Shown here in pieces: positions 12,709 to 18,952 of a DNA stretch of 32,000 nt. The stretch is from Edaphobacter aggregans (GTDB taxonomy: Bacteria; Acidobacteriota; Terriglobia; Terriglobales; Acidobacteriaceae), in the NCBI RefSeq assembly GCF_003945235.1, contig NZ_RSDW01000001.1, positions 4,170,001 through 4,202,000 on the forward strand, read 5' to 3'. Both the position numbers and the translations under genes were made by a program. Position 1 is the first letter of the stretch. Each line of letters begins with the position of its first letter. The notes below the pieces were generated by a model that made no database searches, was not told where the DNA came from, and saw only the letters and a list, made by a program, of their open reading frames with translations.

Positions 12709-13074
12709 ATGCAATCGCTAGAAATCCAAGGCTTCAGTTACGAAGAGCGCAATGGCCTGCTGGCGGCGCTTACTTCGGCTTTCGCCGAGTGCGGCGGCTG
12801 GGTGCTCGATCGCAAGACGCTGTCTGCTACGACGATGGAGTTTCGCATCGAAATACAGCTGCGTGCCATCATCGACCTTTACGCCTCTATCATCTCCTCC
12901 GGCCTTGAGCTGACGCGCAACGGCCACCTCGCCCTCACAGACCTCTGTACCTGCCGCAAGAACGCGTCGACCACGGCAGATCTCGGCCAGATTGTCTCGA
13001 TCCGGATCGAGATCAGCTTTCTGGAGGACATGACGCTGCACTCGCTGCTGATGATTGGCAACACGCTGGCCTAA
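12709..13074 (+). CDS. Hypothetical small cytoplasmic protein (121 aa)
   Basis: High GC3 and a non-Arg-rich, globular-looking sequence. I do not recognise a family. Its stop codon overlaps the stop of the convergent 13071-14327 gene. Confidence 0.5.
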   Translation: MQSLEIQGFSYEERNGLLAALTSAFAECGGWVLDRKTLSATTMEFRIEIQLRAIIDLYASIISSGLELTRNGHLALTDLCTCRKNASTTADLGQIVSIRIEISFLEDMTLHSLLMIGNTLA

Positions 13075-14327
13075 TGGGTCGGTAGCCGTCCCTTTGGGCC
13101 GAAGAGCGAGACCCGGAAAGGAAATCCCACGGAGAACTGGAGATTTGGAGTGTCCGGAGTGAGCCCTACTCCAAAGGTCAGGTCTACGGTCTTACCTGGC
13201 GCGTAGAGGTAACTTGCGCCCAGCCGCAGACTGCCCTCCACTAGGTACGACGCAGGTATGGATGCGCCGTTGAGGGTCGTGGCTCGGGTGAAGCGCTGAT
13301 CCCATCCGATCGTCATTGAGGTTTCGGGATTCAGGGCCAGGATCGATCCGAGCTGAAAGCCGATCGCGTCTCCCGGTTGGAAGTGGCCGACCATCATTGC
13401 ATTCTGGTTTGTCGGGTCGTTGGCCGGAATCAGGTGGCTGCCGTTCAGGTTTGCTGTGTAAGAGAGATTTCCGAAGAAGACCACCGGATCGTTCGACTTA
13501 GCCGCCGTCAGATTGCCCTGCACGGCGTAGAAGCCCGATCCGAGCGCCGTTGTGGCGCTGCCCAGGTCGAAGGAGTTTACGCCAGTGGTTGTCTTGAATC
13601 GCACATTGGCGAGCATGTCGGGGGTTCGACCGTGCTCGGTGGTGAGCTGACGTGAGAGTCCGAATTGAATGTCGCCCATTCCAAAGGTGCTCGTCGAGGT
13701 CTGGACGTTGTTTGCGTCGACCGTGCGGCTCAGGTTGTAGCCGTATGGAACCAGAAAATCAAACTGGAATTTGTGCGGCAGGCCGAGCCGCGTGGTGAAC
13801 GAAGAGAGCAGGATATCCTCGCGCACACGCTGCGAGGTAATGTCGCCGACGACCAGAATCGGTAGCAATGCGAATCCGTTGATGTTGACGTGGTCGGAGG
13901 ATGCGCTGAAGTACGAGGCTGCATTCTCGATCTCCAACGTTCCCGGAGGCACAAGCAGACCGCCGCGCAGGATTAAGGCCTGATCCAATGCTGCGCTGGC
14001 TTGCCGTTCGTCGGTGTCGTAGCCTGAGTTCTTTACAGAGGTGACCGCGGAGGATATCGCCCCCACAGCAGATCCCGAGACTGGTTTGGCTGCGACCATG
14101 TTGAGTGGATGAGTCGCGAGGTCGCCGTTCAGCCTCCACTCCAACTCCTGCACTCTCTCCAGCAAATTGCGGATGATCGCGTCCCGCTCGCGAAGAGCCT
14201 CCTGTACCTTAATGTCGATCGGATCTTTCGACGGCGGTGGTGCTGTGCCGGTAACTGCTACTTGTGCTCCGACCGAACCTACGCAAAGCAGCAGAATGGA
14301 GCCTTGAATCATCGTTCGCAGCAACAT
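13071..14327 (-). CDS. Outer-membrane beta-barrel protein with N-terminal coiled coil (FapF-like architecture)
   Basis: 418 aa. Signal peptide (..LLLCVGSVGAQ). Heptad-like helix IDIKVQEALRERDAIIRNLLERVQELEWRL (nt ~14127-14222). A linker follows, then alternating-polarity beta-strand-rich sequence ending GFPFRVSLF plus a 9-aa tail. An AAGGGGGA SD lies 14 nt after the upstream stop. Confidence 0.75.
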   Translation of the reverse strand: MLLRTMIQGSILLLCVGSVGAQVAVTGTAPPPSKDPIDIKVQEALRERDAIIRNLLERVQELEWRLNGDLATHPLNMVAAKPVSGSAVGAISSAVTSVKNSGYDTDERQASAALDQALILRGGLLVPPGTLEIENAASYFSASSDHVNINGFALLPILVVGDITSQRVREDILLSSFTTRLGLPHKFQFDFLVPYGYNLSRTVDANNVQTSTSTFGMGDIQFGLSRQLTTEHGRTPDMLANVRFKTTTGVNSFDLGSATTALGSGFYAVQGNLTAAKSNDPVVFFGNLSYTANLNGSHLIPANDPTNQNAMMVGHFQPGDAIGFQLGSILALNPETSMTIGWDQRFTRATTLNGASIPASYLVEGSLRLGASYLYAPGKTVDLTFGVGLTPDTPNLQFSVGFPFRVSLFGPKGRLPTH

Positions 14328-14341
14328 CGGTCCCCCTTGTG

Positions 14342-15019
14342 TCAGTACAGCGGATTAGCCGGAATCGCGACCCCGATGCCGCGCGTGATAATTGTTTCGT
14401 CGGGCGAGGTTCGGGCTGCAACCAATGGTTTCTTGTCGCCGATCATCAACTCATCCGGTGGATGAACGACAAAGGCGATGCCGTTTTTCCAGAGCCCCTT
14501 GAACCGGTCGACCTTCATCGTGACATTGCCGAAGCCGGGGTCGGCCATAACGACGCGGCCGCCCTCGATGCCTTTGACCACGACGAAGTGGTCGAAGCCC
14601 TTGAGTCGAATCGGCGTTATGACGGAGGTCTTCTGCAGCGCGAGTTCCTCAATTGACATGCCGCTGAAGGCCTCTGCGCTGTAGCCGCGCGCCTGCGCGA
14701 ACCGCTTTAGATCGAGCAGAGAAAATCCGCCACGAGTTCGTACCTTTATCGGGTCGACGCGGTGAAGAATCCATACCACGATGGCGGATTCAGGTGTGTC
14801 ATCCTTGAAGTCGTAGGTCAGCACGGTGCTGAGTGCGGCAGCGCCACAACTGATGTCCCAGCGCTGCCGCACCACACCTTCCCCTCGGATCTCTTTCAGA
14901 CTATGAATGGTCTTCATCTTTTGCATCTCCCCCTCGTACCCAAAGTTCTGGGCGTGCATGGGAGTGACCAAGAGACCGAGACCAATCAGTCCGACAGCAA
15001 GTATTTGCCCGCGAATCAT
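14342..15019 (-). CDS. Periplasmic stand-alone C39-family cysteine peptidase (FapD-like architecture)
   Basis: 225 aa starting MIRGQILAVGLIGLGLLVTPMHAQ (signal peptide). C39 catalytic residues are all present: Gln/Cys in RQRWDISCGAAALSTVL, His in FDHFVVVKG, Asp in VMADPGFG. The start overlaps the upstream stop (TGATG). The 361-aa ORF-track version is an artefactual N-terminal extension. Confidence 0.8.
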   Translation of the reverse strand: MIRGQILAVGLIGLGLLVTPMHAQNFGYEGEMQKMKTIHSLKEIRGEGVVRQRWDISCGAAALSTVLTYDFKDDTPESAIVVWILHRVDPIKVRTRGGFSLLDLKRFAQARGYSAEAFSGMSIEELALQKTSVITPIRLKGFDHFVVVKGIEGGRVVMADPGFGNVTMKVDRFKGLWKNGIAFVVHPPDELMIGDKKPLVAARTSPDETIITRGIGVAIPANPLY

Positions 15020-15423
15020 CAATGGCTCCCATTCATGTTCGCCTGTGTCATCGTGCCCACAGTCGAGTTGATGTTCACGTTCAGGTTCATCAGGACGTTG
15101 ATCTTCGAGTTCACCGCGTTGATGTTCACGAGTGAATGCAGGTTTTGTTGTGCGTTGTCGCTCAACGAGAGAGTGCCCATGGTCGTGCCGGTGAGACCAC
15201 TCTGAAACGACATTGTGCCTGCGCTGGAGACGAGCCCATTTGCTGTTGGGACCTGACCCTGAAACTTCACGACTCCATCGGAGACGCCAGCACTGACTCC
15301 GGCTGCCGTCACGCGATCCATCGCAGCGTCGCTCATTGGCTTGGCTGTTGGTTTGATTTTGGTTTGAGCCATGCCCAGCTGCGTGAGTAGGGCAAGACTC
15401 GCGATCACTAAAATGCGGCGCAT
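15019..15423 (-). CDS. Small secreted repeat-module protein (134 aa), paralog of the 530-aa protein
   Basis: Signal peptide MRRILVIASLALLTQLGMAQ. Shares MSDAAMDRVTAAG, the L..NAQQNLHSLVNINAVNSKINVLMNLNV module and the NINST..TQ tail with the 15503-17095 product. A strong AAGGAGG SD lies 4 nt before the ATG. Confidence 0.75.
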   Translation of the reverse strand: MRRILVIASLALLTQLGMAQTKIKPTAKPMSDAAMDRVTAAGVSAGVSDGVVKFQGQVPTANGLVSSAGTMSFQSGLTGTTMGTLSLSDNAQQNLHSLVNINAVNSKINVLMNLNVNINSTVGTMTQANMNGSH

Positions 15424-15450
15424 ACAACCTCCTTAAACCCAGGCAAGAGT

Positions 15451-15490
15451 GCAGGCGGGAGCGGTCCTTTTTGTGGGACCGCCCCCCTGC
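15451..15490 (-). promoter_or_regulatory. Intercistronic GC-rich stem-loop between the 530-aa and 134-aa genes
   Basis: ~15 bp pair across three segments: 15451-55/15486-90, 15457-59/15483-85 and 15461-67/15476-82, with two single-nt bulges and an 8-nt loop. It lies 12 nt after the stop codon. No U-run follows on the mRNA strand, so it is not a canonical terminator. Confidence 0.55.
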
Positions 15491-15502
15491 GCCGTCGCTC
15501 CT

Positions 15503-17095
15503 TTATTTGTGCTGGCTGATGGTGTTGAGCTGCGTGAGTGTTGGGGTTGAGTTCATGTTCGACGTGCGGGCCACGTTGACGCCGTTGGCAACGAGTCCGC
15601 CGGCAGCGTTAACAATGTTCATCGCGACTGCATTCTCTTCAGCCGTTCCCGCCAGAGTCACACTGTAGGTGTTAGTCGTCGTGATGGTCGACCCATCCAC
15701 TGCGATGTTGGTTGCAGTGGCTGAATCCATCGCGAGCGCACCCTGTATGTTCTCCGTCTTGTGGTAGGCCTTGATCGAGTGGCTGGAATTCGACTTATCC
15801 TTCGTTGTAACGAGACTCGCCGTCTTGGCGTCGCTGGCGCTCTCTGTCTCGCTGTTGGAGGTCGAGTCAGAAGCACTCTTCATCGCCTGATCCGCCTTCA
15901 TGCTCGAACTGCTATGAGACTCTGCATTCTGCGAAGCATTGTTTGCGCTCTTCGATGAAGCGTCTTGCGACGTCTTATCGTAAGTTGAGTTCTTGCTGTC
16001 GTTCGCAGACTTCATATCGCCCGAAGTCGAGCTCTTGTTCGATGACGAGTTGCTGGTATCGGCTGACTGATTGGAGCTGGTAGAGCCGCTTGTAGCAGTA
16101 TTGTCAGCGCTGTTGGTGGAGTCGGTTGCCGACGCGCCCTTGGAAGCGCTGAGATTGTCGGCCTGCGAGCCCGAGGTCGTCGAGGTGGATCCACCACTCG
16201 AAGAGGGATTGCTATACGACGAATTGCCGACGGATGTGGAGCTTCCGGATGGGCTGGCGGCGGACGCGGTGTGATCGGTCGTGCCACTGCTCGCCGTATT
16301 GTTGCTGGTGCTTCCCTTGCTTGCTGTTGCGTTATCCGTGGCAGAAGCCGACTTCACGTTGCTTGCATTCTTCGTGTTGTTGGACATCGCAGCGTCCGTC
16401 GCGGCGTACGTCTTGTCCAAGCTGTTCGAATCCGACGACATCGAGGAAGATCCCGAGGTCTTGCTGGCGTTATGCATCTCGGCCGCGTTGTTTGATGCGC
16501 TATCGCTGCTTGAAGAGCTGCTGGTGTCGGTCTTGCTGGCCGTCACCGCATCCATGGCGCTCTTTGTGTCGCTGGCTGCGGCGTTGAGGCTTGAGGAACT
16601 GGTGCTGTTCTTTGTCACATCCGACGACTTCGTTACGTCCAACTCCGAGTTCGCACCGCGGGTGTAGCCCGTCAACGAGGCTTGCGACGCACTCGACTGA
16701 GTGATGTCGTTGGTCTGGTTGACATCCGCGCTACCGGTGTTTTCCTCAGTGGTAAGGCTTCCGTTATAGACGTTCACACCATTGGCGACGACTGCATCAG
16801 ACGAACTTACGATGTTGATGCCTTTCGCTCCGCTAAGCGCGGCTCCATCGAGGCTCACGGTTCCTGTGTTGTTCTCGGTGACTGTCGAGTTATCTGCCGC
16901 TATCGCTGTACTTTCCTCGCCGGCAGCGGTTACTTTATCCATCTGCGTGTCGCTGATGGCTTGGGTCTTGCTCTGTTTCTCGTGGGTTGTCTTGGACTTG
17001 CTCTGACCGTACGCTGCGCCAGAGACGACTAAGGCTGTGATAAGCGTGAATACAAGTTTTCTCACTGCTTCCTCCATGTGGCCATGGTTGGCCAT
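15503..17095 (-). CDS. Large secreted repeat protein: two N/V/A/G/T-rich modules flanking a ~330-aa Ser/Thr/Asn/Asp/Ala low-complexity linker
   Basis: 530 aa. Signal peptide (..KLVFTLITALVVSGAAYGQ). ATG at 17095, or an in-frame ATG at 17077. The protein-like minus frame contrasts with Arg/Leu-rich plus-strand ORFs. The N- and C-terminal modules are homologous to each other and to the 134-aa protein. Confidence 0.75.
   Translation of the reverse strand: MANHGHMEEAVRKLVFTLITALVVSGAAYGQSKSKTTHEKQSKTQAISDTQMDKVTAAGEESTAIAADNSTVTENNTGTVSLDGAALSGAKGINIVSSSDAVVANGVNVYNGSLTTEENTGSADVNQTNDITQSSASQASLTGYTRGANSELDVTKSSDVTKNSTSSSSLNAAASDTKSAMDAVTASKTDTSSSSSSDSASNNAAEMHNASKTSGSSSMSSDSNSLDKTYAATDAAMSNNTKNASNVKSASATDNATASKGSTSNNTASSGTTDHTASAASPSGSSTSVGNSSYSNPSSSGGSTSTTSGSQADNLSASKGASATDSTNSADNTATSGSTSSNQSADTSNSSSNKSSTSGDMKSANDSKNSTYDKTSQDASSKSANNASQNAESHSSSSMKADQAMKSASDSTSNSETESASDAKTASLVTTKDKSNSSHSIKAYHKTENIQGALAMDSATATNIAVDGSTITTTNTYSVTLAGTAEENAVAMNIVNAAGGLVANGVNVARTSNMNSTPTLTQLNTISQHK
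15560..15730 (-). repeat. C-terminal module of the 530-aa protein (aa ~456-512)
   Basis: MDSATATNIAVDGSTITTTNTYSVTLAGTAEENAVAMNIVNAAGGLVANGVNVARTS is homologous to the N-terminal module and to aa ~35-118 of the 134-aa protein. Confidence 0.7.
16757..16942 (-). repeat. N-terminal module of the 530-aa protein (aa ~52-113)
   Basis: MDKVTAAGEESTAIAADNSTVTENNTGTVSLDGAALSGAKGINIVSSSDAVVANGVNVYNGS aligns with the C-terminal module; a short (about 4-aa) gap is needed after the initial MD motif and the remaining ~52 residues align ungapped. Confidence 0.7.
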
Positions 17096-17419
17096 GCGCG
17101 ACCATGCACGCGGCTCGAACGAGCTGCGCGGCGGCCAATTTATGACGCACGCTTGCGCATCCGTAATGGAGGCTCAAGACGAGACATCATGTACCTGTAG
17201 GGGCGAGGGCTTCGACTCAAAGTCAGCTTGCTCAATTGAAAATAAGACAGGCGAAAGACAGGTGCACTCAAGTCAGTCGCGTTCAAAAAAATCGCGTTCG
17301 CAGATAACTAGTCGGACGTGGAGCCCTGAACTTACTCATAACCATCTTTTCTACCTTGCGTTACTAAGTGCTTAGTAGATAGAGCCCAGTAGGGGCCCAC
17401 AAATAGCCGGGGTTATGCG

Positions 17420-17435
17420 TGCAATTCGTGTTCCA
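17420..17435 (-). promoter_or_regulatory. Candidate sigma-54 (-24/-12) promoter element upstream of the repeat-protein operon
   Basis: The minus strand reads TGGAACacgaaTTGCA versus the consensus TGGCAC-N5-TTGCA, with correct GG-N10-GC spacing and one mismatch. It would imply a leader of >300 nt. Confidence 0.3.
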
Positions 17436-17560
17436 ATCGCCCGCCCACAATCCAAAGGAGTTCTACTTATTCGTACTTTGCGGCTGCACCACTTTGCATA
17501 TTTTTGTGGAAAAACATGCCATTTCTGTGGCTAATTGGTTTCAAAGTAAAAGTAGGTCGT

Positions 17561-17597
17561 GTAAGTTCGAGATAAGTCAGAGTAAGTAGTGACTTAC
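17561..17597. repeat. Helically phased hexamer repeats (G/A)TAAGT x3 plus one inverted copy
   Basis: GTAAGT at 17561, ATAAGT at 17572 and GTAAGT at 17582 (spacing 11 and 10 bp), with inverted ACTTAC at 17592-17597. The last two form the palindrome GTAAGTagtgACTTAC. The array lies ~140-175 bp upstream of the sigma-54-like element. Confidence 0.4.
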
Positions 17598-17614
17598 AAA
17601 TAGTTACGTCTTAA

Positions 17615-18211
17615 TTATCGATCTAGCCAGACAATCGTGGGTCGGTGTAATAGGCTGTCGGACGCGCCAATTACGAGTACGTCGGGTTGACGCCATCCAT
17701 GAGTGAAGACAAGCCTGAGCCCGGTAGCATCCCTCGCTACTTTGAACACAGGTTCACTTACCACTGAATCCCCCGCAGCGAGTCTGGCTGTCAGCGGTAC
17801 TCCTGAGATCCCCCTCGACTCATTCCACCTGCGCCCCTGTGCATCCAGGAGATATGCGCGGATCAGTTTTTCGCTCTCGGTACGGCCACGTGCATGATTC
17901 GTGATTCGGACAGATACCCGGATCAGCCGGCTTCCATCGTGAATTAGAAATCCTGGTACCTCCTCGACGCCTGTGACCGCAAAGCACATCTCGTCGAAGC
18001 ATTGGTCCTGGCCCATGGCCACGGCCTTTTGCGGCTGCAGCAGTGAAAACGCCAGCAGCACGACAAGATAAGTCGCCCACACGCCTGCGATCCAGCCCAA
18101 ATGGCGAAGGGCCTTCGCCCGTTCTCCCCGGGCCAGCGATATGGTCACTCCGATGGCTCCAATCGCCGTCCAACCCACCAGTGCCAGCAGTAAAAGCTCC
18201 CTCAGGTTCAT
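17615..18211 (-). CDS. Hypothetical membrane protein (2 TM helices plus a C-terminal beta-rich domain)
   Basis: The ATG at 18211 gives MNLRELLLLALVGWTAIGAIG... (198 aa). The longer ORF-track start at 18424 would run antisense through the ABC ATPase gene and adds non-protein-like sequence. Confidence 0.6.
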   Translation of the reverse strand: MNLRELLLLALVGWTAIGAIGVTISLARGERAKALRHLGWIAGVWATYLVVLLAFSLLQPQKAVAMGQDQCFDEMCFAVTGVEEVPGFLIHDGSRLIRVSVRITNHARGRTESEKLIRAYLLDAQGRRWNESRGISGVPLTARLAAGDSVVSEPVFKVARDATGLRLVFTHGWRQPDVLVIGASDSLLHRPTIVWLDR

Positions 18212-18247
18212 TTCAGGCCCTCGTTCACGGTAAACTTTTATTAACTC

Positions 18248-18952
<705 letters not shown>

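What the first reader, a model, noticed from the sequence alone, without database searches (positions are those of the whole stretch)
13071..17095. Four-gene operon with the architecture of a functional-amyloid (Fap-like) secretion system in a non-proteobacterial-looking context
Four co-directional, tightly packed minus-strand genes are present. (i) A 530-aa Sec-secreted protein built from two homologous N/V/A/G/T-rich modules around a ~330-aa Ser/Thr/Asn/Asp-rich linker. (ii) A 134-aa Sec-secreted paralog carrying one such module. (iii) A 225-aa signal-peptide-bearing stand-alone C39 cysteine peptidase with Gln/Cys/His/Asp intact. (iv) A 418-aa outer-membrane beta-barrel candidate preceded by a heptad coiled coil. 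The junctions are 79 nt (hairpin plus strong SD), a TGATG 1-nt overlap, and 14 nt with an SD. A large repeat subunit with a variable linker, a short paralog, a periplasmic C39-like protease and a coiled-coil-bearing barrel form the core of the Pseudomonas fap operon (FapC/FapB/FapD/FapF), which to my knowledge has been described only in Proteobacteria. Here I see no FapA- or FapE-like gene, the gene order differs, and the repeat sequence (..NIVxxxxxxVANGVNV..) is only compositionally reminiscent of Fap repeats. I cannot demonstrate sequence homology from memory, so the call is architectural. Alternative readings are an adhesin or surface-fibre export system, or a periplasmically processed secreted peptide system.
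Basis: partly seen in the sequence, partly recalled or inferred. Interest (0 to 1): 0.85.

Follow-up and report, generated by a model that had tools for sequence, protein, structure and literature searches.

The report
Fap-related fibre export cassette, new subunits
This soil acidobacterium carries a conserved four-gene cassette whose outer-membrane channel and periplasmic protease are true relatives of the Pseudomonas amyloid (Fap) export machinery, but whose two exported Asn-rich proteins are an undescribed family carrying a bacteriocin-style "double-glycine" leader right after the Sec signal, which names the protease's likely target.

Summary
The four minus-strand genes, their junctions and the intergenic hairpin are as described; only the first gene's start is probably GTG 17065, giving 520 aa. 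The window is Edaphobacter (Acidobacteriota).

The 418-aa protein is a real FapF homologue. By sequence it matches only FapF in the PDB (E 1e-21). Its model has a coiled coil, a disordered linker, a helix and a barrel, and its best fold matches are FapF. The 225-aa protein is a signal-peptide-bearing C39 peptidase with Gln/Cys/His/Asp intact, nearest to FilB and FapD.

The two subunits are paralogues but show no detectable homology to FapB/C, curli, Pfam or NCBIfam families.

New here: both subunits carry, after the Sec signal, a conserved motif L-[STN]-D-x-[EAQ]-L-D-x-[VI]-T-A-[GA]. This matches the double-glycine leader consensus, and some relatives have a true GG. It is the probable C39 cleavage site.

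The order large–small–C39–barrel recurs in 78 of 80 related genome loci. These come from Acidobacteriota, Geobacteraceae, Syntrophobacteraceae and Gammaproteobacteria, including Marinobacter iranensis.

It is therefore a sister of Fap, Fil and Nap, not canonical Fap. The export pathway is well supported. Fibre or amyloid formation is inferred only.

The parts
15503..17095 (-). Large subunit gene (530-aa ORF; probable true start GTG at 17065, giving 520 aa). It encodes a Sec signal, a double-glycine-type (GG-type) leader, an N module, a Ser/Thr/Asn-rich hypervariable linker and a C module.
   Evidence: ORF. The start is revised from alignment A2 and the GGAGG upstream. Orthologues of 427-520 aa by gene calls, and stop-to-stop ORFs of about 216-746 aa, lie immediately upstream of the small subunit in nearly all related loci. 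No Pfam or NCBIfam family matches.
17006..17065 (-). Sec signal peptide of the large subunit (aa 11-30, ...SGAAYG|Q).
   Evidence: Read from the sequence. The position is conserved in A2. Cleavage by signal peptidase is inferred.
16922..16957 (-). Double-glycine-type leader motif of the large subunit, ISDTQMDKVTAA (aa 47-58). Cleavage is predicted after A58.
   Evidence: D49, Q51, M52, D53, V55, T56 and A57 are invariant in A2. A relaxed form of the motif is present in 66 of 74 large-subunit ORFs of related loci.
16694..16969 (-). N-terminal module of the large subunit (aa ~43-134; core VSLDGAALSGAKGINIVSSSDAVVANGVNVYNG).
   Evidence: The HMM built from C-terminal modules hits this region at E 3e-11. 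It is conserved in A2.
15791..16693 (-). Ser/Thr/Asn/Asp-rich linker (aa ~135-435), hypervariable in length and sequence.
   Evidence: A2 shows large indels and low identity here. Orthologue ORF lengths range from about 216 to 746 aa.
15506..15790 (-). C-terminal module of the large subunit (aa 436-530; core VTLAGTAEENAVAMNIVNAAGGLVANGVNVARTSN...LTQLNTISQ).
   Evidence: C-module HMM E 8e-44. It is the most conserved part in A2 and is recognisable in Gammaproteobacteria and other MAG loci L007/L008.
15448..15493 (-). GC-rich stem-loop in the 79-nt spacer between the large and small subunit genes, followed by an AAGGAGG Shine-Dalgarno sequence. Probably an intra-operon attenuator or mRNA stabiliser that sets the large:small expression ratio.
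   Evidence: MFE -37.3 kcal/mol, z = -2.3. A strong hairpin sits at the same position, with a different sequence, in every Acidobacteriaceae locus checked. Its function is inferred.
15019..15423 (-). Small subunit gene (134 aa): Sec signal, GG-type leader, Gly/Ser/Thr-rich beta region and a conserved Asn-ladder module.
   Evidence: ORF. There are 708 homologues at the 90% clustering level and 221 clusters at the 50% level. It is 65-70% identical across Acidobacteriaceae genera. No Pfam, NCBIfam or PDB family matches.
15301..15336 (-). Double-glycine-type leader motif of the small subunit, MSDAAMDRVTAA (aa 30-41). C39 cleavage is predicted after A41.
   Evidence: Column counts in 87 diverse homologues: L82%, S/T/N, D86%, x, E/A/Q, L82%, D79%, x, V/I, T78%, A92%, G82%. 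Some members have a true GG. AF2 models aa 32-40 as a helix. The strict motif occurs 84 times in 1.41 M aa of six-frame ORFs, always inside subunit genes.
15037..15171 (-). Conserved C-terminal module of the small subunit (aa 85-129, LSLSDNAQQNLHSLVNINAVNSKINVLMNLNVNINSTVGTMTQAN). Residues 108-120 alternate strictly between hydrophobic and Asn/Gln residues.
   Evidence: This is the most conserved block of the family: N113 and Q127 are invariant, and A91, Q92, L95, N100, A103 and S106 exceed 90%. The same module is iterated about 18 times in the 1283-aa relative P0328. AF2 places strands at 91-102 and 109-120 (low confidence).
14342..15019 (-). Stand-alone periplasmic C39 cysteine peptidase (225 aa). 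Signal peptide aa 1-23 (...PMHA|Q). Catalytic residues Q52, C58 (nt 14846-14848), H144 (14588-14590) and D160 (14540-14542).
   Evidence: Pfam Peptidase_C39 5e-15. NCBIfam FilB 1e-32 and FapD 1.8e-26. The PDB match 6mpz aligns the catalytic residues. Q52/C58/H144/D160 are invariant in A6 across three phyla.
13071..14327 (-). FapF-family outer-membrane transporter (418 aa): signal peptide aa 1-21, coiled-coil helix aa 37-67 (nt 14127-14219), disordered linker 68-103, helix 105-120 (nt 13968-14015, candidate plug) and beta-barrel 130-407 (nt 13107-13940).
   Evidence: NCBIfam FapF 1.6e-28. phmmer against the PDB hits only FapF 5o65/5o67/5o68, E 1e-21, across aa 129-404. The AF2 model gives the topology. 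Foldseek top 18 hits are FapF (E 9e-17, TM 0.72-0.77), followed by COG4313 4rl8 (E 1e-10, TM 0.60).

Best explanation
The cassette encodes a two-step surface-fibre export system of the Fap/Fil/Nap type, meaning a periplasmic C39 peptidase paired with a FapF-family barrel, with its own undescribed substrate family.

Proposed pathway:
1. Both subunits, large (520 aa) and small (134 aa), cross the inner membrane by Sec. (Shown: signal peptides. Inferred: export.)
2. In the periplasm each subunit exposes a 20-30-aa propeptide ending in L-S-D-x-x-L-D-x-V-T-A-[AG], a double-glycine-type leader. The co-encoded periplasmic C39 peptidase recognises and removes it. (Inferred from the motif, its exclusive occurrence in these genes and strict co-occurrence with the peptidase.)
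3. The unfolded mature subunits are threaded through the FapF-like 12-strand barrel. The barrel is held as an oligomer and gated by its N-terminal coiled coil and helix. (Homology shown; mechanism transferred from FapF.)
4. Outside the cell, the homologous Asn/Gln/Val/Ala-rich ~30-aa modules stack intermolecularly into a cross-beta or beta-solenoid-like fibre. There is one module in the small subunit and two in the large one, the latter separated by a long hydrophilic Ser/Thr-rich spacer. In this model the conserved small subunit acts as nucleator or minor subunit and the variable large subunit as the major, surface-decorating subunit. (Inferred by analogy to FapB/FapC and CsgB/CsgA.)
5. The conserved hairpin after the first gene probably raises large-subunit expression relative to the machinery. 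(Inferred.)
For: Barrel homology to FapF comes from three independent routes, and the predicted domain order is coiled coil, linker, helix, barrel.

The peptidase has a signal peptide and intact, invariant catalytic residues. It is closest to the stand-alone periplasmic FilB and FapD rather than to ABC-transporter C39 domains (113 and 93 bits vs 35 bits).

The leader motif matches the double-glycine consensus LSxxELxxIxGG. Distant members have a true GG, for example LSDQELDQVTGG. One of them nearly reaches the TIGR01847 bacteriocin double-glycine signal model (14.6 vs 15.7 bits). The motif is specific: 84 of 84 strict matches fall in subunit genes.

Synteny small→C39→barrel holds in 78 of 80 loci, with a two-module large subunit upstream. 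It spans Acidobacteriota, Desulfobacterota and Gammaproteobacteria and is kept even where the flanking genes differ.

The module is an iterable repeat: about 18 tandem copies in P0328. The subunits carry too few modules for a monomeric solenoid.

The variable-large/conserved-small pattern parallels FapC/FapB (Dueholm 2013, PMC3792158).

Precedents exist. FapD activity in the periplasm is required for FapC secretion (PMC5557850). In the Neisseria nap island, the authors propose that GG peptides are cleaved by the C39 peptidase NapP and secreted through NapF, a FapF homologue (PMC11798529).
Against: There is no experimental evidence for export, cleavage or fibres.

The subunits show no detectable homology to FapB/C, CsgA or any solved structure. 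The AF2 monomer is of low confidence (pLDDT 60) and has no Foldseek match.

The predicted cleavage site in this organism is Ala-Ala or Ala-Gly rather than Gly-Gly. In Pseudomonas Fap, FapB and FapC show no N-terminal processing beyond the signal peptide, so the analogy for step 2 is to Nap and the bacteriocins, not to Fap itself.

The barrel model is only moderately confident (pLDDT 63). Oligomeric state was not modelled.
Confidence: 0.6

Rival explanations
1. A Nap-like secreted-peptide system. The C39/barrel pair processes and releases soluble proteins, such as signals, toxins or autolysis-type effectors, rather than building a polymer. The Asn-rich modules would serve a non-structural role.
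For: The GG-type leader is the hallmark of bacteriocins and microcins. In the Neisseria nap island, a FapF homologue plus a stand-alone C39 are proposed to process and secrete GG peptides (PMC11798529).
Against: The mature products are large (about 93 and 460 aa), uncharged or acidic and Asn/Ser/Thr-rich, unlike cationic microcins of less than 10 kDa. No immunity gene is conserved in the cassette. The module is iterated up to about 18 times in one relative, and two homologous subunit types are always co-encoded, which points to co-assembly. The mucin-like spacer of 270-300 aa fits a surface structure.
Confidence: 0.2
2. A non-amyloid surface adhesin or S-layer-like coat. The subunits fold after export into discrete beta-rich domains anchored at the barrel or outer membrane, as in two-partner or autotransporter-type folding, without forming cross-beta fibres.
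For: The all-beta prediction with long hairpins. The long hydrophilic spacer is typical of stalked adhesins. NCBIfam calls the related Acinetobacter Fil system a 'putative pilus system'.
Against: One or two ~30-aa modules per chain are too few for an autonomous beta-helix. No anchor, LPXTG or lipobox feature is visible in the subunit sequences (read from the sequence). The strictly alternating hydrophobic/Asn strand at aa 108-120 is typical of stacking interfaces.
Confidence: 0.15
3. The 418-aa protein is a COG4313/Phenol_MetA_deg-type uptake channel for hydrophobic compounds, as currently annotated ('transporter'), and its adjacency to the other genes is incidental.
For: The Pfam hit is PF13557 Phenol_MetA_deg, 3.5e-10. 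Database names are 'transporter' and 'Putative MetA-pathway of phenol degradation'.
Against: By sequence it matches FapF and not the COG4313 structure in the PDB. By fold, FapF ranks first by six orders of magnitude in E-value. It has the FapF-specific N-terminal coiled coil and linker. It lies directly downstream of the C39 gene and the small-subunit gene in 78 of 80 loci, across phyla and across different genomic neighbourhoods.
Confidence: 0.03

Closest known systems
Pseudomonas Fap functional-amyloid system (fapABCDEF; FapF transporter PDB 5O65, FapD C39 peptidase, FapC/FapB subunits)
   Same: The outer-membrane transporter is homologous, with the same domain order: coiled coil, disordered linker, helix, 12-strand barrel. 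Both have a homologous Sec-exported stand-alone C39 peptidase. Both have two paralogous repeat-bearing secreted subunits, one large with a hypervariable linker and one small and conserved. All genes sit in one operon.
   Different: There are no FapA or FapE genes, and the gene order is large-small-peptidase-barrel. The subunits belong to an unrelated, or undetectably related, sequence family. Both subunits here carry an explicit double-glycine-type leader, whereas FapB and FapC are not N-terminally processed and FapD's substrate is unknown (PMC5557850). Scores fall far below the FapF/FapD equivalog cut-offs. The system occurs in Acidobacteriota and Desulfobacterota as well as Proteobacteria, whereas Fap was reported only in Beta-, Gamma- and Deltaproteobacteria (PMC3792158).
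Neisseria nap island (NapP C39 peptidase + NapF FapF-homologue + GG-motif peptides NapA/B/C; PMC11798529)
   Same: A stand-alone C39 peptidase is paired with a FapF-family barrel, and the substrates carry a double-glycine cleavage motif. [quoted passage not shown]
   Different: Nap substrates are small cationic microcin-like peptides that promote autolysis. Here the substrates are 134- and 520-aa Asn/Ser/Thr-rich beta-proteins with Sec signals and iterable modules. No sequence comparison with NapP or NapF was run here.
Acinetobacter Fil 'putative pilus system' (NCBIfam FilB C39 peptidase, FilC barrel)
   Same: FilB is the best NCBIfam match for the peptidase (1e-32), and FilC also matches the barrel (5e-16). 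It is another C39 + barrel pairing.
   Different: Both scores are far below the Fil cut-offs (113.6 vs 475 bits; 58.9 vs 630 bits). No NCBIfam model other than noise matched the subunits. The mechanism of the Fil system is itself uncharacterised.
Class II bacteriocin/microcin double-glycine leaders processed by C39 domains of PCAT ABC transporters (e.g. PDB 4RY2, 6MPZ)
   Same: The leader pattern has hydrophobic residues at -12, -7 and -4 and small residues at -2 and -1. The peptidase fold and catalytic residues are the same.
   Different: Here the peptidase is periplasmic and not fused to an ABC transporter. The leader follows a Sec signal peptide instead of being the N-terminus. Export uses an outer-membrane barrel, not a type I secretion system (T1SS).
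Curli (CsgA/CsgB/CsgG)
   Same: The concept is shared: Sec-exported, unfolded, Asn/Gln-rich repeat subunits (major plus nucleator) secreted through a dedicated outer-membrane channel and polymerised outside the cell.
   Different: No homology was found in any component. There is no Curlin_rpt hit, and curli has no peptidase step.

Membership tests
FapF (NCBIfam NF058560 equivalog; PDB 5O65) | Full-length score above the curated equivalog cut-off (700 bits) | tested here: not met
   99.7 bits, E 1.6e-28, profile positions 50-418 of 420. It is a homologue but not an equivalog.
FapF (NCBIfam NF058560 equivalog; PDB 5O65) | Barrel fold closest to FapF rather than to the COG4313 importer | tested here: met
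   phmmer against the PDB hits FapF only, E 1e-21. Foldseek gives FapF E 9e-17 and TM 0.72-0.77, against 4rl8 E 1e-10 and TM 0.60.
FapF (NCBIfam NF058560 equivalog; PDB 5O65) | N-terminal periplasmic coiled coil, then a disordered linker, then a helix preceding the barrel | tested here: met
   The AF2 model has a helix at 37-67 with a 4-3 hydrophobic spacing, a low-pLDDT stretch at 68-103 and a helix at 105-120. The coiled-coil residues are invariant in 47 homologues.
FapF (NCBIfam NF058560 equivalog; PDB 5O65) | Trimeric assembly; gated peptide conduction | not testable with these tools
   Only a monomer prediction was available.
FapD (NCBIfam NF058616) / stand-alone periplasmic C39 peptidases | C39 fold with the Gln/Cys/His/Asp catalytic set | tested here: met
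   Pfam PF03412 at 55.9 bits, above the 22-bit cut-off. Q52/C58/H144/D160 are invariant.
FapD (NCBIfam NF058616) / stand-alone periplasmic C39 peptidases | Sec signal peptide and no ABC-transporter fusion | tested here: met
   225 aa with the N-terminus MIRGQILAVGLIGLGLLVTPMHA|Q. The gene ends 14 nt before the barrel gene.
FapD (NCBIfam NF058616) / stand-alone periplasmic C39 peptidases | Score above the FapD equivalog cut-off (330 bits) | tested here: not met
   92.8 bits. FilB scores higher (113.6 bits) but is also below its cut-off of 475.
Fap operon (fapABCDEF) | FapC/FapB-type repeat subunits | tested here: not met
   No NCBIfam or Pfam family matched either subunit at E <= 1 apart from noise. 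The family profile finds no FapC or CsgA in the PDB at E <= 10. The comparison is limited to what those libraries hold.
Fap operon (fapABCDEF) | Presence of FapA and FapE genes and the fapA-F gene order | tested here: not met
   The cassette has four genes. The flanking genes are an ACP synthase, MlaD and an ABC ATPase, and they differ in E. flagellatus.
Double-glycine leader peptides (TIGR01847 bacteriocin_sig type) | Consensus L-S-x-x-E-L-x-x-I-x-G-G with hydrophobic residues at -12, -7 and -4 | tested here: met
   Column frequencies in 87 homologues. True GG variants exist. The window's own copies end in Ala-Ala.
Double-glycine leader peptides (TIGR01847 bacteriocin_sig type) | HMM score above the cut-off | tested here: inconclusive
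   The distant member P0308 scores 14.6 bits against a 15.7-bit cut-off. The window's proteins were not reported at E <= 1.
Double-glycine leader peptides (TIGR01847 bacteriocin_sig type) | Actual cleavage by the C39 peptidase | not testable with these tools
   This needs N-terminal sequencing or MS of the mature subunits.
Functional amyloid (generic) | Cross-beta fibres; SDS-insoluble and formic-acid-soluble; ThT/Congo-red binding | not testable with these tools
   Only indirect evidence: the Asn-ladder module, its iteration about 18 times in P0328 and an all-beta low-confidence model.

The most novel reading that the evidence does not exclude
This is a third, phylogenetically broad class of Gram-negative functional-amyloid or fibre system, alongside curli and Fap. 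Fibre subunits carry a 'dual leader', a Sec signal followed by a double-glycine propeptide. Periplasmic removal of the propeptide by a FapD-type peptidase licenses passage through a FapF-type channel. On this reading, leader-gated secretion would be the ancestral logic of the whole FapD/FapF module and would explain FapD's long-unknown role.
Probability: 0.35. Interest if true: 0.85.

Novelty: new variant of a known kind. Interest (0 to 1): 0.72.

Why it matters
Fap is one of only two well-understood Gram-negative amyloid export systems. It was reported as confined to Proteobacteria and described as evolutionarily young, and the substrate of its essential peptidase FapD has been unknown since 2017.

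This cassette shows that the FapF/FapD machinery is an older, modular export device, used in Acidobacteriota, Desulfobacterota and Proteobacteria with a different cargo family.

The cargo here carries an explicit, highly specific peptidase-recognition leader. The peptidase-substrate question therefore becomes directly testable by mutating the leader or Cys58 and reading the mature N-termini.

The cassette also nominates an abundant, completely unannotated protein family as a candidate matrix or fibre component. The family has about 220 clusters at 50% identity and is near-universal in the Edaphobacter, Tunturiibacter and Granulicella genomes recovered. Acidobacteria are a dominant soil group whose surface biology is poorly known.

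Current annotations of the four genes ('transporter', 'phenol degradation', 'hypothetical protein', 'double-glycine peptidase') miss the system entirely.

Tried and rejected
1. Structure-based identification of the small subunit. The AF2 model from a 69-sequence alignment reached only pLDDT 60, and Foldseek against the PDB returned nothing below E 0.75. No conclusion can be drawn on a FapC- or CsgA-like fold.

2. Sequence-profile search of the subunit family against the PDB at E <= 10 gave only noise. Pfam scans of all 87 diverse members gave no family; DUF6160 matched weakly in 3 members, over the signal and leader region. NCBIfam scans of the window's subunits, of 10 diverse relatives and of two large subunits from other loci also gave no family.

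The C39 alignment A6 was used instead.

4. A riboswitch or other regulatory RNA upstream, such as c-di-GMP: no Rfam hit at E <= 1 in 12900-18300. No sigma-70-like promoter or canonical intrinsic terminator was found for the operon, so regulation remains unknown.

5. The literature search for the Fil system mechanism found only FilF vaccine papers. Nothing links Acidobacteria with Fap.

6. The upstream 269-aa ORF (17615-18424) was considered as a fifth component and rejected. It is conserved upstream in the Tunturiibacter and MAG loci but absent in E. flagellatus, where UvrB is the neighbour.

7. The COG4313 importer reading was rejected (see rival explanations).

8. No direct comparison with FapB/C/E, NapP/NapF or FilA sequences was possible, because those sequences were not obtainable within the session's collections.

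Full report
**Origin and observation**

Three of the four proteins are exact matches to Edaphobacter aggregans entries RSL17950, RSL17951 and RSL17952 (locus tag EDE15_3504 for the 134-aa protein). The window is therefore an Acidobacteriaceae chromosome.

The four minus-strand ORFs are at the stated coordinates.
- a 79-nt spacer holding a GC-rich stem-loop and an AAGGAGG Shine-Dalgarno sequence; the stem-loop folds at -37.3 kcal/mol, z = -2.3;
- a TGATG one-base overlap;
- a 14-nt spacer.

One correction applies. Orthologues start at the position of residue 11, and GGAGG lies 5 nt upstream of GTG 17065. The large protein is therefore most likely 520 aa. This fits with the 530-aa sequence being absent from the protein collection.

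**The channel**

Pfam places the 418-aa protein only in the general Phenol_MetA_deg/COG4313 family. Three further lines tie it to FapF.
- The NCBIfam FapF model matches at 1.6e-28 over nearly the whole profile, positions 50-418 of 420.
- A phmmer search of all PDB sequences returns only the FapF entries 5O65, 5O67 and 5O68, at E 1e-21 across residues 129-404. The COG4313 channel is not returned.
- An AlphaFold model from 47 homologues has mean pLDDT 63, with 70-83 across most of the barrel. It shows a signal peptide, a helix at 37-67, a disordered stretch at 68-103, a helix at 105-120 and a barrel at 130-407.

The helix at 37-67 has a 4-3 hydrophobic spacing (V41, L45, R48, I52, L55, V59, L62, L66), and these residues are invariant in the family. 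Foldseek ranks 18 FapF chains first (E 9e-17, target TM 0.72-0.77). The COG4313 channel follows at E 1e-10 and TM 0.60, then autotransporter barrels.

The protein is a FapF homologue with FapF's domain plan. It falls far short of the FapF equivalog cut-off (99.7 vs 700 bits), so it is a separate branch.

**The peptidase**

The 225-aa protein has a signal peptide (…PMHA|Q). It passes the Pfam C39 threshold and aligns its Gln, Cys, His and Asp with the LahT peptidase domain 6MPZ. Q52, C58, H144 and D160 are invariant in orthologues from three phyla.

Its best NCBIfam matches are the two stand-alone, Sec-exported C39 families:
- FilB, 1e-32;
- FapD, 1.8e-26.

Both score well above the ABC-transporter-fused C39 domains (~1e-8), and both are below their family cut-offs.

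**The subunits**

Neither subunit matches any Pfam or NCBIfam family. The small one belongs to a well-populated but wholly unannotated family:
- 708 clusters at 90% identity;
- 221 clusters at 50% identity with E <= 1e-3, and 155 with E <= 1e-10;
- none of 87 diverse members reaches a Pfam family;
- the family profile finds nothing in the PDB.

The large protein has two homologous modules. An HMM of C-terminal modules hits aa 436-530 at 8e-44 and aa 43-134 at 3e-11. Between them lies a Ser/Thr/Asn-rich spacer that is hypervariable in length and sequence among orthologues.

Small and large subunits are paralogues (hhalign probability 92%, E 5.5e-7). The small-subunit HMM also hits large subunits in several loci.

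The shared module is about 30 aa: L-x-L-x-[DG]-x-A-Q-x-x-L-x-[SA]-L-[VI]-N-[IV]-N-A-V-N-S-x-[VI]-[QN]-V-L-L-N-L-N-[VI]-N-I-N-S. In the small subunit, residues 108-120 alternate strictly between hydrophobic and Asn/Gln residues.

One relative, P0328 (1283 aa), has the same signal and leader followed by about 18 tandem copies of this module. The module is therefore an iterable structural repeat.

The AF2 monomer of the small subunit is all-beta after a short helix. It is of low confidence (pLDDT 60) and has no structural neighbour. A FapC- or curli-like fold is neither shown nor excluded.

Some 10-25 residues after the predicted signal-peptidase site, both subunits carry a conserved motif: MSDAAMDRVTAA|G in the small subunit and ISDTQMDKVTAA|G in the large one.

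Across 87 diverse homologues the columns read L(82%)/M, S/T/N, D(86%), x, E/A/Q, L(82%)/M, D(79%), x, V/I, T(78%), A(92%), G(82%)/A.

This is the pattern of the double-glycine leader of class II bacteriocins and microcins, LSxxELxxIxGG, with hydrophobic residues at -12, -7 and -4. That consensus is established knowledge; the colicin V leader MRTLTLNELDSVSGG, quoted from memory, is very similar.

Several further observations support this reading.
- Distant members have a genuine Gly-Gly: LSDQELDQVTGG, LSDAELDRVSGG and MNDAEMDKVSGG.
- One such member nearly reaches the TIGR01847 double-glycine signal model, and also hits a bacteriocin family weakly over this segment.
- AF2 models the segment as a short helix, as is known for such leaders.
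- A strict regular expression for the motif occurs 84 times in 1.41 million residues of six-frame ORFs from 89 loci. Every occurrence lies inside a subunit gene.
- A relaxed form is present in 66 of 74 large subunits.

The natural inference is that the co-encoded periplasmic C39 peptidase removes this propeptide.

**Conservation as a unit**

Gene-context look-ups show the order large–small–C39–barrel in five settings:
- Edaphobacter flagellatus, where the flanking genes are entirely different;
- Tunturiibacter gelidiferens and several MAGs;
- a contig carrying the small subunit that NCBI names for a Geobacteraceae MAG;
- a Gammaproteobacteria MAG;
- a further MAG.

A scan of 185,579 species-representative genomes with the peptidase alignment found 128 relatives. 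This is a lower bound, because the scan depends on sequence patterns. In the best 80 loci, HMM searches of all ORFs give small→C39→barrel on one strand in 78, with a two-module large subunit upstream in nearly all.

| Group | Carriers found |
|---|---|
| Acidobacteriaceae | Edaphobacter, Tunturiibacter, Granulicella, strains KBS 146 and TAA 166 |
| Other Acidobacteriota | Ca. Angelobacter, Acidiferrales, Polarisedimenticolia |
| Desulfobacterota | Geobacteraceae, Syntrophobacteraceae, Thermodesulfobacteriota |
| Gammaproteobacteria | Steroidobacteraceae and the cultured Marinobacter iranensis 71-i |

Barrels and peptidases from the distant loci give the same NCBIfam pattern: FapF 1e-25 to 7e-32, and FilB/FapD 1e-32 to 1e-37.

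A strong hairpin between the large and small genes is positionally conserved in Acidobacteriaceae although its sequence differs.

**Mechanism proposed**

Shown:
- signal peptides on all four products;
- FapF and C39 homology;
- the leader motif and its specificity;
- strict co-occurrence of the genes.

Transferred from characterised relatives:
- periplasmic C39 activity is required for secretion through FapF, since FapD C38A abolishes FapC secretion (PMC5557850);
- FapF conducts unfolded polypeptide and is gated by its helix and coiled coil (PMC5557850; PMC6173795);
- in Neisseria, a stand-alone C39 (NapP) and a FapF homologue (NapF) are proposed to process and export GG-motif peptides (PMC11798529).

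Inferred:
- after Sec export, the C39 enzyme cleaves after T-A-[AG];
- mature unfolded subunits pass through the barrel;
- outside the cell, the homologous modules stack between chains into a cross-beta or solenoid-type fibre;
- the conserved small subunit acts as nucleator or minor subunit, and the variable, spacer-bearing large subunit as the major one;
- the hairpin tunes their ratio.

The argument for polymerisation is indirect. There are too few modules per chain for an autonomous solenoid. Two homologous subunit types are always co-encoded. The module is iterable. The strand is Asn-ladder-like. The variability pattern resembles FapC/FapB (PMC3792158).

**Comparison with known systems**

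The cassette works like Fap in its channel, its peptidase and its large/small repeat subunits. It is not a member of the Fap family for four reasons:
- the equivalog thresholds fail;
- FapA and FapE are absent;
- the subunits are unrelated by every test available;
- unlike FapB and FapC, which are not N-terminally processed, the cargo here carries a C39-type leader.

In that last respect it resembles the Neisseria Nap system and the bacteriocins. The Acinetobacter Fil 'putative pilus' system is a further sibling, known only by annotation.

Fap was reported as restricted to Beta-, Gamma- and Deltaproteobacteria. Off-target FapD/FapF hits were noted at that time as 'larger families' (PMC3792158). 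No paper in the searchable library describes this cassette, its subunit family, or any Fap-like system in Acidobacteria.

**Verdict**

This is a genuine Fap-related export system with a new cargo family and an explicit leader-peptidase logic, spread over at least three phyla. The export pathway is well supported (about 0.75). Fibre or amyloid formation is plausible but untested (about 0.45).

Noticed in passing
P0328 (1283-aa protein from the representative search; not in the window): A giant relative with the same signal peptide and leader (FLSDKDMDSVVAG), followed by about 18 tandem copies of the ~30-aa subunit module at 60-80-aa spacing. It is a multi-repeat version of the family.
   Followed up: partly
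window 15448-15493 (-); same position in L001-L027: A strong GC-rich hairpin between the large and small subunit genes is conserved in position but not in sequence across Acidobacteriaceae. It has no U-tract. It may be an attenuator or mRNA stabiliser.
   Followed up: partly
L047 and L053: Contigs binned as 'Acetobacteraceae' and 'Verrucomicrobia' MAGs carry cassettes whose peptidase matches the window's at the same level as the Acidobacteriaceae loci (66% and 72% in the best tblastn segment). These are most likely mis-binned contigs rather than inter-phylum transfer.
   Followed up: no
L029 (Edaphobacter aggregans DSM 19364) versus the window: The type-strain peptidase is only 65% identical to the window's, although the window's genome is also labelled E. 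aggregans. Either the species label of one genome is doubtful or the locus diverges unusually fast.
   Followed up: no
L008 3818-5951: An IS element (HTH_Tnp_1 and rve genes) lies next to an extra large-subunit copy that lacks its signal and leader end. This suggests a transposon-disrupted duplicate.
   Followed up: no
L075, L082, L085, L087 (same strand); L079 (opposite strand): Non-Acidobacteriaceae versions of the cassette often carry two tandem large-subunit genes. L081 and L086 (Thermodesulfobacteriota) have the C39 and barrel genes but no detectable small subunit.
   Followed up: partly
window 14342-15427 (-): The mechanical ORF list shows a 361-aa TTG ORF. This is the C39 reading frame running upstream through the small-subunit gene. 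It is an ORF-listing artefact, not a longer protein.
   Followed up: yes
window 17096-17614: A 520-bp intergenic region of lower GC (0.51) lies upstream of the operon. It has no sigma-70-like promoter match and no Rfam hit, so the operon's regulation is unknown.
   Followed up: partly
P0053, P0055 (barrel homologues): The precomputed annotations list an extra Pfam family, PF27958, on a few barrel homologues. It was not reported when P0053 was scanned against the local Pfam library, and its identity was not established.
   Followed up: no
P0402 and two other distant small-subunit relatives: These give weak Pfam DUF6160 hits (best E 0.0015); in P0402 the match covers the signal peptide and leader segment. 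DUF6160 proteins may be cargo of related C39/barrel systems.
   Followed up: no
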